Shown one piece after another: positions 50,539 through 62,800 of a DNA stretch of 64,000 nt. This DNA is from Aplysia californica (Eukaryota). How positions within the stretch are numbered: the stretch's first letter is position 1; each line of letters opens with the position of its first letter. Below the pieces are notes generated by a model. That model was not told where the DNA came from. It ran no database searches and saw nothing but the letters and a program-made list of their open reading frames with translations. Made by a program: the position numbers and the translations under genes. Where the stretch lies: NCBI RefSeq assembly GCF_000002075.1, contig NW_004797434.1:650423-714422 (forward strand), read 5' to 3'.

Positions 50539-50592
50539 TATCAAACCAGTGTATGGGGCTCAGCATCCTCCTCCACAAACTGACATCACGTC
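50539..50592 (+). CDS. TBC1D22: TBC1D22 exon 2
   Basis: Hand translation SIKPVYGAQHPPPQTDIT (conserved VYGAQHPP); TTTTTCAG acceptor, GTAAGT donor. Confidence 0.9.
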
Positions 50593-51278: not shown

Positions 51279-52296
51279 GTGAGCCATTTGTAGATGTGCT
51301 TACTTACTTGGTTGGAGAATGTGTATCATTGCAGGCGGTACAATGCCTTAGCTGCCCCTCTCCCCTCTCCAGGATCCATAACGGTTGACTTGCTGATCGT
51401 GCTAGTTATAAGCTCGTTGGATATTAAAAAGTATGGAACGCTTCAGGAATTTGAATGTCCTTGCGCAGGAGCCATGCCAATCTTCTCTGTATCATTCCAG
51501 TTTAGGTTTGTGTCCCATATTGGCCGTTTTTAGATGTATATGTAGACAGCTTGCCTGTAATGCGTTCTTTAGAAATGAACAGATACGGAAAGGTGTCTGG
51601 ATTTTTTTTTTCCCCCTCTTCAAAAAGGGTGTGGTACTGTGGTATAATGAGCAGAAGTTATGTGGTGTTTGTTCACTGTAAACTACTAACATGTTTTTTG
51701 AGATGTGTGTTGTGGTATTTTTGTGTAAATGTTTTTTCACTGTCATATATCCTGTTTTTTATTTATGTTCATTTTCAGTATTGTATGTCTGGTGAATAAC
51801 ATCCTGTATTTTTTGTCGATAATCTCTAGTCCAAAAACGGGTATTTTATTTCACTCCCCCCAAGTAGGTGGTGCGACACGTTTAATTGTTCTCAAGAATG
51901 TTTATGTTTTACGGTGCATTTGGGATATTTGCTCTGTTCTGTTGTCTTTGTCGTTTTTTAAATTTTTTTATCTTCTTCTTTATTTAAATCACAGAGCCAA
52001 GTGCTATTCCTGTAAAATTACCATTCTGTGTTTAGTAAGCTGCTTGTTAAATACATGTAAGCATATATTGCTCGTGGGTGGTTGGCGGATGCTCTGGTAT
52101 GGTTTGCTCCTTCATTCCCATCAAACATCTATCGTCCTCTTTCCTTTTTCTTTTTTGTGTTTGATACTCTCTTGTAACACCTCAAATCTTTGATACTTAC
52201 AGGACCCAATTGTGTTGCAAATGCCGTAGAATTTTACTAAAACACATTGCTCTTTTTTGACATGTTTCGTGTTTATGGTCTCTTCCCGCGAGGCAG

Positions 52297-53759: not shown

Positions 53760-53888
53760 GGTTACCTCCCCACAGCAGCAGACAGAAGGCAGGAGACTCT
53801 AGAACGCAAACGCAAGGAATACTTCAGCTATATAGATCAGTATTACGAAACGAGGTATCAAGACCAGCACGAGGAAACCTTCAGACAG
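53760..53888 (+). CDS. TBC1D22: TBC1D22 exon 6
   Basis: GYLPTAADRRQETLERKRKEY...HEETFRQ; phase 0-0. Confidence 0.93.
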
Positions 53889-57590: not shown

Positions 57591-58625
57591 GGAAATGTTC
57601 TGAGATTTCCCTTCTTTCTCTTTTGTCTTTCACCACACCCTGAAATATTTGTTATGCATGCTGTCATGGGCTGTTAGATCACTTCGAGTCTGGGGTGAAG
57701 CACACGTGGAGCTTTCAGTAGATTTTTTTCTTATCTCTTCTCTTGCTGTGGTTGTTGCATTGTTCTGACTTATTATTCTGTCTACCGTGTAAAAAGCAGG
57801 CGGTTGGTAGATGCTCTGGTGTGGACTGCTCTTTCTTTTCCTCTAGATTTGTACTTCAGTTGAACCTGCCTGTGCAAAACGACCACTTCCCACCTTGTGT
57901 TTTTTCTTTAATATGTGTGTGTGTGTGTGTGGGTGCCTGGAGAAAGGTCCCAGTTGGCGGAAATTTTGGATATTGAAATAAGGGCATATTCTTGTAGCAA
58001 ATTCAATGCTGAACACGCTGATTTTTAAATTAAAAAAATATCTCGAGTTGTTTTAAAGATATACCACATTTTGTATTTTCCCAATGTGTAGCTCATTTCT
58101 TACCTTTTGTGAAGTACAACATTTTGCAAAAATAATAGATAAAAAATATTTAGATTTGAAATATTATAAAACCATAAATTTGTTATTAAGAAATGGTGAA
58201 ACGTGTGTTTTCTGTTGGAACTAAATTTTTTTACCTCATACAACTTTTTTGGCCTTCTCACCCTGTTGCTCAAAACTGGCTTTGCCAACAACTGGGACTT
58301 TTCTCCAGGCACTCACACGCATGTATAACAACATTTTCTAAGAGGACCGCCTGTCTAAGGTTACTACTTTTCTTCTTGACAATGATTGTTTATCATGGAC
58401 AGATTCGACTGTATTTTTTTTGGGCCTATTCTGTTCCTGATGAAATGCACTATTCTTGGATAAGGATACCTTTGAGACGTTTTCTTGGTTGTGCACCAAC
58501 TTTGCTCCCTCCTTTCGGAGAAGGACAGAAACAGGGGAAATCTGATTTTTAAATATCTTGGTCATTTATAGTTGTGTCACTTCACCCACTGATATTGCCA
58601 TCCTAATTTGTTAAACCTAAACACA

Positions 58626-59163
58626 GGGGGCTCTCGTGGCCTAGAGGTTAAGGTGTTGGCCTCTCATTCAAAGGTCCCGGGTTCGAATCCGGGTAACGAC
58701 CAAAAAATTTTCTTCTCTAAAATTGTCTCCTTTCCCATCCTTTCCTGATCTCTAACAATGTTCTGTTGTCTGCTTTCATTTCCACTTTCTGCCCCACCCC
58801 CTCACCTCCTTTGCCCCCTCCTCTGGGCTCCTGGCTCTTTCTGCAGCCTTTCTACTGCTACTCCTTGGCTCCTCCTAACTGCTGTCTTTCTGCCACACCC
58901 CTGATCTTCTGGTAGGAAAGATCTACACCTAGCCTTCTCGGACAAGGGCGAAAAATCTCGGAGGGCCCGTGTGCAAGTTGCGCACGTTAAAGATCCCTTG
59001 GTGGTCTAAAATCGACAAGAGTAGGCTTCGGCCGCCACCCGGGCAAAATTCCAAATTTCCTACCAACTGAAAAATATTAGGTGTGTCCCGCGCGCTCATA
59101 TGACCTATGCAGTTGCGAGCGCCGTAAAACCCTATACTAAACAAACAAACAAACCTAAACCTA
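58626..59163 (+). mobile_element. tRNA-derived SINE family B (about 510 bp)
   Basis: A box TGGCCTAGAGG, B box GGTTCGAATCC, CTC anticodon-like loop (tRNA-Glu-like); central CCTTCTCGGA...CACGTTAAAGATCCC domain; 3' tail shared with family A. Confidence 0.85.
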
Positions 59164-59249
59164 AGTTGCTCCTGCACAGGTCAGCATGTTCTGTTCCAGG
59201 TGGGTGCGACGCAGGGACTTTCTCACCACCTCTTTGCCTCTTATTTCAG

Positions 59250-59315
59250 ATTCACATCGACATCCCCCGCATGAACCCACTAATCCCCATATTTCAGCAG
59301 CTCATAGTTCAGGAA
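59250..59315 (+). CDS. TBC1D22: TBC1D22 exon 7a (canonical arginine-finger exon)
   Basis: IHIDIPRMNPLIPIFQQLIVQE; TTTCAG acceptor, GAA|GTGAGT donor; 66 nt, phase 0-0. Confidence 0.93.
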
Positions 59316-61948
59316 GTGAGTAGCCAGTCCTCCGATCTCCAAAGAATTTCTTTTTTTTTTTTTGTGCATATGGGTTTTGTTTTTGTTTTTTTCCTCTCAA
59401 TTTTTGGACAATTTCTTGTGCGTGCTCATGCCTGTTTTCACGGTAATGGCTGCCTTTCCTTCCTCGTGCATCCGTCCTCACCCCGTCCTCACCCATACCT
59501 CCTCCTCCTCCTCCTTCTCCTCCTCCTCCTTGTCCTTCTTTTCTTTCTCCTCTGCCTGCTTCCATCATTAGCTGTTCCGTGACAGCGTGTGTGTAGATGT
59601 AGACGTGTGTTTCATGATGTTTGTGTGTGGACCCAGTTCAGCCCATGCAGTGTGATCACATCCCTCTCTCGTCTCTGTCTTGCACATGTGGTAGAAATAG
59701 TTTTAGCTGCTCTGTTGTGGGTGAAAAAAGAGGTATAAAAATGGAAATTGATTTGAAAATGAGCGGGGGGCTGATGAAATGGAATAATTTTTTAAAAGGA
59801 CTTCAAGAGATCAGAAATAAATTTAGAAAAAAGGTGGAAGATGCAGTATAAATGTTTTTTGGAAATGAAGGGAGAGGGTAGAGGTGGTTTTGAAAATAAA
59901 AATGCTCTGCAAGCGTCTATCCACATGAAGTTGCAGTACTAACAAAATCCTTCCTCAAACACCCTGCACTGACATGTTGCCAAATATTAATACTTCTCCA
60001 AAATGGAGGACTGTGCAATTGTATACAATGATTTGCTTTTATGGCAGAGATGGCGTGACTACTTACTTAGTGTTTAGTTAGTGTCTGTTGCCATAGCAAC
60101 TCCTGAATCACTGGTGAGATGAGTGTGATCGGACTGGATGGGCTGTCTTGTCTTTGTTGTGACTGACCTGAAGTTCCGTGACTGTACTCACATTAACTTT
60201 CTCAGTACGCAAGGGATTCCAAAATCTTACGCACCCAATTTGAGGCAGCAAAGGGTGTTTTCTGAAAACAGCTATAATTCAGTCAAATCTTAATGGATTT
60301 GTTTGTGTGGGCACTCAAGCTATTTGTAGTTGGACAGAAAAATCGCGACATGGGTGAAAATTGGTTGTGAATGTAGCAGAGTCCAGTTCGTGTGCGGAGG
60401 ATTGAGAAGGTCAAAAGACTTTTTCCTTTGATTGTTAATGTTTTGATTGTAGATCCTTTAGCATTAGAGTGAGAGCTGGAGCAGATAGTGATAAATTGTT
60501 TGTGGACATGATTGTTAGCTGTCTGCATGCTTTTTGCACAGGAAAAAAAAGGAGTCTGTGACCGCTGTTCTGTACAGTGCATGTTGTATTGTTTTCAAGA
60601 TTTCTGTGTTTGTGTCCTGCTGACCTTTTGACTCTGCTGCGTTAGCGTTGGTTGCTGTTGTCCTGAAATGTTTTTTTTTCATTCTGTGTGGTTTGAGTCC
60701 CAGTTTGTAAAGTTTGTTACAGAGGAGTTCTTTTGTGACGCTGTTTTCTGTTTGTTCATGAAATGCAAGGTGTTCAGTCAAACCGTGTGGGAAGAGACTT
60801 ATGTTTTAGGCTGCTTGCTAGAGCGGATGGTTAGAGGGTGTCGTTGATTGTCCGTCACTTCTTTTTTTCCCCCCGAGTTATACATCGTAATTTTTCTCAG
60901 AGCTAAATGACAACGAGGGTGGCTGCAGGGTGCCACTTGTAGGTTGTACTAAGTATCTGTCGTCTTGTCAGTGTGATTCTCTTTAAATAACAAATGATTA
61001 GGCAGGCTGAAAGACTTGGCAACTTGGCTTCTTTTATTGTCTTTCTTATTGACTGTGTTCGCTGGTGGAGGTGAAGATTTGGGGATGTTGGTTTTCTGCT
61101 CTTGACTTGGTGCTATCTATCGGGTATTGGTGTTTCCACAAGTTTTTTTCCCCCTTTCTGTTGCCAGAGAGTTTCAAAATGAATTGAGCTCACTATGCTT
61201 GGACCTTCTTGAAAACGTCTTCCGTTTTCCTTTTTTCCATCTGTTTTACCCTCTTGATGTCCTTTTCTCAATATGCTTGTCAAACTGTCGTTCTTTTTCT
61301 TTTCTTGCTGCTTATTCATCTCCTTTCCTTCTTCCAATTACCTTCATTGGTTTGATTAAATGTTACCTCTGCGGACTCTTCCGTAATTTTTCTCTCCTTT
61401 TAAACTTCAGACATTAGAAACATCAAAAGTTTTTGTGGAAACTTCTGAATCTAATTTTGCCCTTTTTGGATTTGTACCATTTACCTGTCAACCTTACTTT
61501 GGATTTTCACCTCAGTTTTTTTTGGTTTTGTGCTGCAATATAACTCAGAATATATGTAGAGGTACAATGTACTAGTTATTTTTTAAAACAAATGCTACGG
61601 TAATTTTGGGTTGTGTTAGTCAGCTTGATTAAATTATGTTGCTTCATTTTATGTTTTGCGTTGAGCTCTCACAACGAAAGAGCTGTTTTTGTGCCGCTGT
61701 GTTTGTGAATGCCTCAATATGTTTTGTTTTGTTTTTTGTTTTGTTTTGTTTTGTTTCCTCAAAGAAGCTTGTCCACAGTGTCGGCAGCGTCCCCTTAACA
61801 CAGGCATGCCGTGGGACGGATGTGAGAGAGTACACACTACACGCCAACGCGCGCACAAACTATAGCGCTTTGCTAGCTACCTCTTGTTTACTTAACCGAG
61901 GAAGAGAGTTCTCCTCCACCAACTGGTCCCGTTAATCTGCTTTCACAG

Positions 61949-62014
61949 ATTCTAAAAGATATCCCCCGCATGACCTCGTTAGCTCACTTGTTCCAAGAGC
62001 GGCCTGCGCAGGAA
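61949..62014 (+). CDS. TBC1D22: TBC1D22 exon 7b (duplicated, putative mutually exclusive arginine-finger exon)
   Basis: Hand translation ILKDIPRMTSLAHLFQERPAQE; CTTTCACAG acceptor, GAA|GTAAGT donor; 66 nt, phase 0-0; 11/22 aa identical to 7a. Confidence 0.8.
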
Positions 62015-62314
62015 GTAAGTATTGTATTCACCTGGACCGACTGAGCTCTCAGCGGTGCAGCCCCCCCCCCCCCCCCCCCCCCCCCCCCAAATCCTCCCGA
62101 GACCTGTGTAGCAGCTCGTGGTTGTGCTGAAGTGAAGCGTTGCACTCTCACAGGATTGCCTGACAGCTATCACTAACTACTAACCGTGCCCTTAAGTTTT
62201 GTCCTGGCCCCCCCCCCCCCCCTCCCCCCAGCCTCCCCAGGAGCTTTCATTCTATTCACCTTTCTTAGAAGTGATTCGTAGAGAAGTTGTGGTTGGTTTT
62301 TCACAATGAGCTGT

Positions 62315-62800
62315 AGAAGTTGTGGTGGTTCTTTAAAATAAGAAATAGAAGTTGTGGTGGTTCTTTAAAATAAGAAATAGAAGTTGTGGTGGTTCTTTAA
62401 AATAAGAAATAGAAGTTGTGGTGGTTCTTTAAAATAAGAAATAGAAGTTGTGGTGGTTCTTTAAAATAAGAAATAGAAGTTGTGGTTTTTTAATTTGCGA
62501 AATAGAAGTTGTGGTATTTTTTTGTTAAATTGAGAAATAGAAGTTGTGGTTTTTTTTTTTTTTGTAATGAGTGATAGAAGTTGTGGTGGTTCTGTATAAG
62601 AAATAGAAGTTGTGGTGGTTCTGTATAAGAAATAGTAATAATAGTTGTGGTTTTTTCAAAAACAGAAATAAAAGTTGTGGTGGTTCTTTCTGACAAATAT
62701 AGGTTGTGGTGTTTTTTAAATGAGATATAGGTTGTGGTGGTTCTGTATGAGAAATAGAAGTTGTGGTGGTTCTTTATGAAAAAATATAGGTTGTGGTTCC
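62315..62800. repeat. 32-bp minisatellite AGAAGTTGTGGTGGTTCTTTAAAATAAGAAAT
   Basis: About 5 perfect copies followed by about 9 degenerate copies. Confidence 0.9.

What the first reader, a model, noticed from the sequence alone, without database searches (positions are those of the whole stretch)
59172..62060. Long-range RNA pairings clamp the two catalytic exons: candidate structural switch for exon choice
Seen (paired by hand): 59195-59209 UCCAGGUGGGUGCGA, just upstream of the 7a acceptor, can form 15 contiguous pairs (4 G-U) with 62022-62036 UUGUAUUCACCUGGA, right after the 7b donor. This is extended by CUGCAC 59172-77 with GUGCAG 62055-60. Nested inside, 59427-35 CAUGCCUGU pairs with 61800-08 ACAGGCAUG and 59449-54 pairs with 61783-88. 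A competing 12-bp helix forms between 59467-78 and 61813-24. Because both exons are multiples of 3 and 2.6 kb apart, neither NMD nor simple steric clash can enforce exclusivity. Known: competing docking-site/selector pairings do this job in Dscam1 and 14-3-3. Inference: the same logic may act here. Short helices can arise by chance.
Basis: partly seen in the sequence, partly recalled or inferred. Interest (0 to 1): 0.7.

Follow-up and report, generated by a model that had tools for sequence, protein, structure and literature searches.

The report
RNA clamp around twin catalytic exons
A sea-slug gene for a membrane-traffic switch-off enzyme (TBC1D22) has two alternative copies of its catalytic exon, shared across molluscs, and the RNA just outside the pair is predicted to zip together over 2.8 kb, which would hide a splice-junction look-alike in front of the first copy and crowd the exit of the second and so likely tips which copy is used.

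Summary
The locus is Aplysia californica TBC1D22B. Exons 7a (59250-59315) and 7b (61949-62014), 66 nt each, both encode the IxxDxxR arginine finger; the pair occurs in gastropods, bivalves and cephalopods. All five helices exist as written. The outer helix H1 is modestly above chance (best of six flank pairs: 2/1000 to 9/250 shuffles, 10/1000 to 18/250 real windows), less so after local folding. The geometry is not Dscam/14-3-3: no docking site has two selectors, and H1 encloses both exons. New: the outer 5' arms are two tandem CAG|GT junction look-alikes just upstream of 7a's branch point, each matched by its own nested partner beyond 7b; one bivalve-like contig has similar motifs before its 7a. 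Best reading (0.4): a mask-and-crowd toggle biasing 7a over default 7b; chance 0.35. Exclusivity is leaky in gene models. No covariation or read data could be obtained. The scan earlier noted this exon duplicated in fish TBC1D22A, not the pairings.

The parts
53760..53888 (+).
   Evidence: sequence; matches P0002/P0122
58624..59162 (+). Young SINE with tRNA-like head and a 10-nt target-site duplication, ending 2-10 nt before the outer 5' arms; offers a competing partner (59093-99) for the H1 arm
   Evidence: 3135 candidate copies, 40 scored, full-length ones 97-100% identical; weak tRNA match E 0.14; duplication and folding
59172..59182 (+). Arm W; holds junction look-alike 1 (CAG|GT at 59179|59180); pairs with 62101-62111, or locally with the H1 arm
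59195..59209 (+). Arm X1 (5' arm of H1); holds junction look-alike 2 (pyrimidines + CAG|GTGGGT at 59199|59200), 50 nt before the 7a acceptor; candidate recursive site or decoy donor (inferred)
   Evidence: predicted U1 pairing -12.5 vs -3.6 to -9.2 for 8 real donors; strongest of 4 such motifs in 244 kb of both strands
59222..59226 (+). Candidate branch point of 7a (A at 59225, -25), predicted in a hairpin loop
   Evidence: motif scan only
59250..59315 (+). Exon 7a, 66 nt, IHIDIPR type, arginine finger; the ancestral-looking copy (like human TBC1D22B)
   Evidence: RefSeq X1 and X3
59416..59478 (+).
61783..61858 (+). Inner 3' arms: H3b 61783-88, H2b 61800-08, H4b 61813-28, H5b 61849-58
   Evidence: single-copy in the genome
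61949..62014 (+). Exon 7b, 66 nt, ILKDIPR type, arginine finger; mollusc-specific copy, 41/66 nt identical to 7a
   Evidence: RefSeq X2
62022..62036 (+). Arm Y2 (3' arm of H1), starting at +8 of the 7b donor
62032..62060 (+).
   Evidence: pairing probability about 0.9
62101..62111 (+).

Best explanation
Two nested long-range helices (59172-82 with 62101-11, and 59195-209 with 62022-36) are predicted to clamp the 7a/7b exon pair and likely act as a ratio toggle rather than a docking-site/selector system: when formed they would mask two CAG|GT junction look-alikes just upstream of the 7a branch point and crowd the 7b donor, favouring 7a. When they are not formed (the likely default, since the 3' arms are transcribed 2.8 kb later), the strong look-alike at 59199|59200 would silence 7a, either as a U1 decoy or as a recursive site whose regenerated donor outcompetes the weaker 7a donor, and 7b would be used. 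Shown: the exons, the complementarity, the motifs and their rarity. Inferred: that the helices form in vivo, that the motif is bound or spliced, and the direction of the effect. The inner H4/H5 pairing may add an RNA bridge but is less well supported.
For: H1 above chance in flank tests and 5/100 against the whole 4.2-kb downstream intron. Both outer pairs are reciprocal best partners over 12.3 kb (partly circular). The only two ACCTG words in 400 nt after the 7b donor (62030, 62102) are the partners of the two CAG|GT words (59177, 59197), in nested order. The 59200 motif has the best predicted U1 pairing, -12.5 against -3.6 to -9.2 for 8 real donors and -7.3 for 7a's own, and is 1 of 4 such motifs in 244 kb (thresholds set after seeing it). 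Exon 6 ends in CAG, so splicing to 59200 would regenerate the same donor. Locus L019, with a bivalve-like 7a (20/22 aa to Mytilus/Mercenaria 7a), has a 24-nt minisatellite directly before its acceptor with three textbook acceptor+donor junctions; its last unit is 11/15 identical to X1 and pairs the Aplysia Y2 arm with 12 bp (3/2000 shuffles, 1/2000 real windows). With the young SINE removed, net binding is -23.2 (3/174 shuffles) and both helices appear in 2 of 4 wide folds. 7b is the usual form in contig-derived mollusc proteins: 42 of 45 informative (48 examined), 3 are 7a, none double or skip.
Against: No orthologous sequence for the 3' arms, so no covariation. In the genome as it stands H1 is absent from 4 of 5 wide minimum-energy folds and appears only when the fold ends lie near the arms. 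Net binding with 200-nt flanks is at chance (63/175 shuffles, 83/234 real). Jointly, outer plus inner reach p 0.12-0.31 against real windows, 0.03-0.08 with the SINE removed. The 7b downstream flank against the whole upstream intron gives 78/100. A local W:X1 hairpin also covers both junction motifs, which blurs the unmasked state. L019 is one contig, noticed after the fact, its motif comes from one repeat expansion, and its partner arm is not on the contig. Intervening AGs weaken 59199 as an acceptor. A helix round both exons classically predicts skipping of both. 10 of 79 NCBI mollusc models include both exons and 4 skip both.
Confidence: 0.4

Rival explanations
1. The helices are chance complementarity. 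The ancient exon pair is chosen, leakily, by weak splice sites and RNA-binding proteins (for example on the long pyrimidine stretch after 7a).
For: Significance depends on the metric and window; a mid-intron helix is nearly as strong as H1; a constitutive intron of the same gene has an equally strong inner pairing (-23.3); H1 vanishes from most wide folds; a young SINE sits against the 5' arms; double and skip forms occur in 5 and 4 species.
Against: Two nested, reciprocal-best helices land within 80-100 nt of the two outer splice sites; the X1 motif is rare and has a look-alike at the same place in L019; the SINE stops just outside the arms.
Confidence: 0.35
2. The outer clamp is functional but loops out both exons, producing the in-frame skip-both isoform that lacks the arginine finger and would be a catalytically dead GAP.
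For: Geometry: H1 and W:Z enclose both exons. Skip-both models exist in Aplysia (X4), Pomacea, Mercenaria and Dreissena RefSeq sets. Looping-out is the usual effect in PMC6071210 and PMC4691838.
Against: Skip-both is 0 of 45 informative contig-derived proteins, so it looks minor; the helices cover the junction look-alikes exactly, which looping-out does not need.
Confidence: 0.15
3. The inner pairing (H4+H5) is the working element, an RNA bridge across the 2.6-kb intron between the exons like FGFR2 IAS2-ISAR; the outer helix is incidental.
For: Net binding -21.4, 3/162 shuffles, 5/234 real; H4 and H5 reciprocal best; precedent cited in PMC12772994.
Against: H4 probability 0.02 in the ensemble and absent from all 9 wide folds; 24/373 real windows and 1 of 6 control exon pairs do as well; the 5' arm borders low-complexity sequence.
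Confidence: 0.06
4. Dscam1/14-3-3-type docking site and selector competition.
For: Homologous tandem exons; H4 crosses H2/H3, so those cannot nest.
Against: No arm with two exon-specific partners; single-exon loop geometries at chance; no flank homology; H2 and H3 not populated.
Confidence: 0.04

Closest known systems
ATE1 exons 7a/7b (R1R3/R3R4 competition; R2R5 long-range ratio control; PMC7797038, passages read)
   Same: Two homologous exons, intronic helices next to splice sites, a long-range helix that sets the ratio rather than exclusivity.
   Different: ATE1 has homologous R1/R4 competing for one R3 and conservation across vertebrates; here the flanks are not homologous, no shared partner was found, and the long helix joins upstream of the first exon to downstream of the second.
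Dscam1, 14-3-3 and srp docking-site/selector and bidirectional pairings (PMC6071210 introduction and passages; PMC4691838 abstract and Discussion)
   Same: Tandem duplicated exons with long-range intronic complementarity.
   Different: Those helices loop out one exon or compete for one docking site; here neither geometry is above chance.
FGFR2 IAS2-ISAR and SCN9A ISRE1-ISRE2 RNA bridges (PMC12772994, passages)
   Same: Single non-competing long-range helix tuning a two-exon choice; deep conservation possible.
   Different: Those are shown by covariation or mutation; IAS2-ISAR lying between the two exons is recalled, not read; no masked junction motif is described in the passages read.
Recursive splicing at ratchet points / RS-exons, e.g. 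Ubx (PMC8605326, abstract and Introduction)
   Same: Juxtaposed acceptor and donor; a regenerated donor stronger than the exon's own donor causes skipping.
   Different: Here the junction lies 50 nt before a second, true acceptor in a 5.4-kb intron and is covered by a long-range helix; no recursive intermediate has been seen.
TBC1D22A/B (Gyp1-like) Rab-GAPs, PDB 6D0S, 2QFZ, 2G77; dual-finger mechanism (PMC5902227, passages)
   Same: Same family; exon 7 carries IxxDxxR.
   Different: The mollusc gene has two versions of this exon; human paralogues A and B differ in the same segment.

Membership tests
Docking-site/selector mutually exclusive splicing (Dscam1, 14-3-3) | Tandem homologous exons | tested here: met
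   41/66 nt identical, same length and phase
Docking-site/selector mutually exclusive splicing (Dscam1, 14-3-3) | One docking site with two or more competing exon-specific selectors | tested here: not met
   Y2 best -23.3, next -13.7; no arm has a second partner placed at the other exon
Docking-site/selector mutually exclusive splicing (Dscam1, 14-3-3) | Pairing loops out the non-chosen exon only | tested here: not met
   Ua:Ub and Da:Db at chance; whole-intron scans 61/100 and a low-complexity hit only
Docking-site/selector mutually exclusive splicing (Dscam1, 14-3-3) | One and only one exon in mature RNA | tested here: inconclusive
   65 of 79 NCBI models single, 10 double, 4 skip; 45 of 45 informative contig proteins single; no reads
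Docking-site/selector mutually exclusive splicing (Dscam1, 14-3-3) | Conservation with compensatory changes | not testable with these tools
   No relatives held; no run listed; no contig with both exons among 29
Bidirectional pairing (srp type) | Two crossing helices, each around one exon | tested here: not met
   Observed helices are nested, outer round both exons and inner round neither
Ratio-setting long-range helix (ATE1 R2R5, SCN9A ISRE, FGFR2 type) | Specific long-range helix of about -15 to -25 kcal/mol beside the alternative exons | tested here: met
   -23.3 and -20 duplexes, reciprocal best; above chance only moderately
Ratio-setting long-range helix (ATE1 R2R5, SCN9A ISRE, FGFR2 type) | Disruption shifts the ratio and compensation restores it | not testable with these tools
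   needs a minigene or antisense test
Recursive splice site (ratchet point) | Acceptor directly followed by a donor stronger than the exon's own | tested here: met
   9 of 12 pyrimidines + CAG|GTGGGT; predicted U1 pairing -12.5 vs -7.3
Recursive splice site (ratchet point) | Splicing intermediate from exon 6 into 59200 in nascent or total RNA | not testable with these tools
   no run was listed, so no reads could be laid
Recursive splice site (ratchet point) | Conserved junction motif | tested here: inconclusive
   one distant contig, L019, has similar motifs in a minisatellite
TBC1D22/Gyp1 Rab-GAP | TBC domain with IxxDxxR and YxQ motifs | tested here: met
   PF00566 on exon 8; E 1.5e-155 to TBC1D22B 6D0S; both exons keep IxxDxxR

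The most novel reading that the evidence does not exclude
A single long-range RNA clamp switches a 500-million-year-old catalytic exon pair by covering a recursive splice site: unclamped, exon 6 splices into the junction 50 nt before 7a, the regenerated donor throws 7a out and 7b is used; clamped, the junction is hidden and the 7b donor is blocked, so 7a is used. The junction motif is kept from sea slugs to bivalves. No such coupling of recursion, RNA structure and exon choice turned up in searches.
Probability: 0.15. Interest if true: 0.82.

Novelty: new variant of a known kind. Interest (0 to 1): 0.5.

Why it matters
How two in-frame, distant exons are kept mostly exclusive without competing selectors is open for many two-exon clusters; this locus offers a small, testable candidate (about 50 paired bases, one junction motif) in a neurobiology model animal, outside the insects and vertebrates where RNA-structure control has been described in the papers read. 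The exon carries the catalytic arginine of a Golgi Rab-GAP, both copies are conserved across molluscs, the same exon is duplicated separately in nemerteans, an annelid and amphioxus, and an in-frame skip would remove the arginine finger. Searches listed no paper on this exon pair, though RefSeq already holds the isoforms.

Tried and rejected
Sequencing runs: one search (any kind, library word PACBIO, chosen to favour related species) listed none; that is no evidence either way, and no reads could be laid. Orthologous introns: no relatives held; a degenerate exon motif found 29 metagenome loci, of which 25 run on into exon 8 without an intron (mostly rotifer-like, single copy), 2 are unrelated, L016 has no upstream intron and only L019 is mollusc-like; 0 in genome contigs. 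Earlier notes on relatives, by sequence and nearby: none. Distant branch point for 7b: rejected, AGs at -42 to -50. In-frame microexon at the junction motifs or a homologue of the bivalve LGLG microexon: none found in 53890-66204 (two N stretches unread). Transposon-derived inverted repeats as the source of the arms: 7b flanks single-copy, 7a downstream matches only in the low-complexity run, SINE ends before the arms. Known RNA family: none above threshold. Duplicated flanks: no convincing homology by eye, no null run. The 100-nt inner test (0/300 shuffles, 3/600 real) was discounted because the windows were placed on the helices. One search timed out and was rerun. No structure prediction or complex job was run. 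Supplements of the papers were not read; catalogues of duplicated exons there could mention TBC1D22 (0 mentions in the main text of PMC9741552).

Full report
Gene and exons. The region lies in a TBC-domain Rab-GAP gene: exon 8 matches PF00566 and exon 10 is 100% identical to a protein labelled TBC1D22B of Aplysia californica on a contig of the same length as G000:C164. Exon 7a (59250-59315) and 7b (61949-62014) are 66 nt, phase 0, 41/66 identical and both keep the IxxDxxR motif that holds the catalytic arginine (PMC5902227, passages). Exon 6 ends at 53888 and exon 8 starts 2205 nt beyond the window. Of 4 RefSeq isoforms read (cluster of 5), X1 and X3 use 7a, X2 uses 7b and X4 skips both.

Depth of the pair. 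Both exon types occur in gastropods, bivalves and cephalopods. Of 79 NCBI mollusc isoform models that I tallied, 65 carry one exon, 10 carry both (Pomacea, Gigantopelta, two oysters, Octopus sinensis) and 4 carry none (Aplysia, Pomacea, Mercenaria, Dreissena) (three Gigantopelta rows reclassified by eye because the pattern missed their 7a variant; seven rows are taken as RefSeq from their names only). These are models, not counts of reads. Of 48 proteins known only from assembled contigs, 45 are informative: 42 carry 7b, 3 carry 7a, none both or neither. So single inclusion is the rule, 7b looks like the usual form, and exclusivity is leaky.

The helices. All five exist as written. H1 is the best ungapped helix in 3.2 kb (-26.2), a mid-intron helix is second (-25.5). 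As the best of six flank pairs H1 is reached by 2/1000, 6/500 and 9/250 shuffles and by 10/1000, 23/500 and 18/250 sets of real windows. With local folding subtracted it is reached by 11/300 shuffles at 100 nt and 63/175 at 200 nt, because a young SINE ending at 59162 offers a local partner; without the SINE, 3/174. The best inner structure is H4 under H5 (59416-25:61849-58), net -21.4, 3/162 shuffles, 5/234 real windows, but 24/373 real windows and one constitutive intron of this gene match it, and outer plus inner together give p 0.12-0.31, or 0.03-0.08 without the SINE. Verdict: real complementarity, moderately above chance, outer better than inner.

Not a docking-site system. In the described systems one site has several selectors, or two crossing helices each enclose one exon (PMC6071210, first fifth of the text and passages; PMC4691838, abstract and Discussion; PMC7797038, passages). 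Here the H1 3' arm has one partner in 12.3 kb (-23.3, next -13.7), H2 is not even reciprocal, the single-exon geometries are at chance and the flanks of the two exons show no clear homology.

What the outer arms are. Both 5' arms are centred on CAG|GT words (59179|59180 and 59199|59200), and the only two ACCTG words within 400 nt of the 7b donor are their partners, in nested order. The second follows a pyrimidine run, lies 25 nt before the candidate branch point at 59225, and pairs better with the U1 5' end (motif recalled) than any of 8 real donors of the gene; 4 such motifs occur in 244 kb of both strands (thresholds chosen afterwards). Exon 6 ends in CAG, so splicing into it would rebuild this donor, as at ratchet points (PMC8605326, Introduction). 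The 3' arm of H1 starts at +8 of the 7b donor. One marine contig, L019, has a bivalve-like 7a preceded by 12.3 copies of a 24-nt unit, three of them perfect acceptor+donor junctions; the last copy pairs the Aplysia 3' arm with 12 bp (3/2000 shuffles and 1/2000 real windows at 100 nt; 12/2000 and 4/2000 at 300 nt). This is one after-the-fact case, and it speaks for the motif more than for the pairing.

Mechanism. I commit, at 0.4, to a toggle: unpaired, the junction motif silences 7a (decoy or recursion) and 7b is used; paired, the motif is hidden and the 7b donor crowded, so 7a is used. Every step after the complementarity is inference. A local hairpin between the two 5' arms shares bases with the long-range state and is the true competitor, but it also covers the motifs, which weakens the picture. 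Chance with protein-based control takes 0.35, looping out of both exons to give X4 0.15, an inner bridge like FGFR2 or SCN9A (PMC12772994, passages) 0.06, docking/selector 0.04.

Limits. No covariation and no reads: the one run search listed none, no relatives are held, and no contig among 29 carried both exons. Two N stretches in intron 6 are unread.

Novelty. The isoforms are in RefSeq; searches listed no paper on this pair, and 42, 63 and 72 none joining a masked ratchet point to exon choice (listings only; the library lacks most subscription papers). Alternative exons that retune an enzyme are known in molluscs (coq-2, PMC7434440, three passages). Two earlier notes of this scan report the same exon duplicated in fish TBC1D22A (not checked here). 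I rate it a new variant of a known kind, interest 0.5, with a 0.15 chance of the bolder recursive-switch reading.

Noticed in passing
proteins P0201-P0211, P0098, P0077: The same catalytic exon is duplicated with different second copies in nemerteans (Lineus, Tubulanus), the annelid Owenia and amphioxus; order differs (variant first in Owenia and amphioxus). Suggests repeated duplication of one exon; human TBC1D22A and B differ in the same segment.
   Followed up: partly
proteins P0012, P0039, P0051, P0156, P0186, P0188, P0202: Oysters and scallops have a 6-7 residue LGLG microexon upstream of 7a, seen with 7b (10 models) or 7a+7b (2), never with 7a alone; Lineus has a similar 6-residue insert. 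No homologue found in Aplysia.
   Followed up: partly
proteins P0062, P0180-P0184: An unnamed bivalve-like cluster has a 7b in which the DIPR motif reads DLQR, keeping the arginine.
   Followed up: no
window 58624-59162: Very young tRNA-headed SINE family, at least 3135 candidate copies, 97-100% identical, with a 10-nt target-site duplication; could be polymorphic and so a natural test of the clamp.
   Followed up: partly
window 51427-51525 (- strand): U6 snRNA copy, probably a pseudogene, antisense in an intron of the gene (68.6 bits, E 4e-16).
   Followed up: partly
window 50539-50592: 54-nt cassette exon absent from RefSeq isoform X3.
   Followed up: no
window 59345-59569: About 225 nt without AG, pyrimidine-rich, right after the 7a donor (read by eye); possible binding platform for a pyrimidine-tract protein.
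   Followed up: no
window 62275-62800: Tandem repeat of roughly 30-40 nt units 260 nt after 7b.
   Followed up: no
L019:471-752: Minisatellite made of splice-junction-like units directly before a 7a-type acceptor.
   Followed up: partly
L008-L034 (rotifer-like loci): Single exon 7 fused to exon 8, no intron between them.
   Followed up: no
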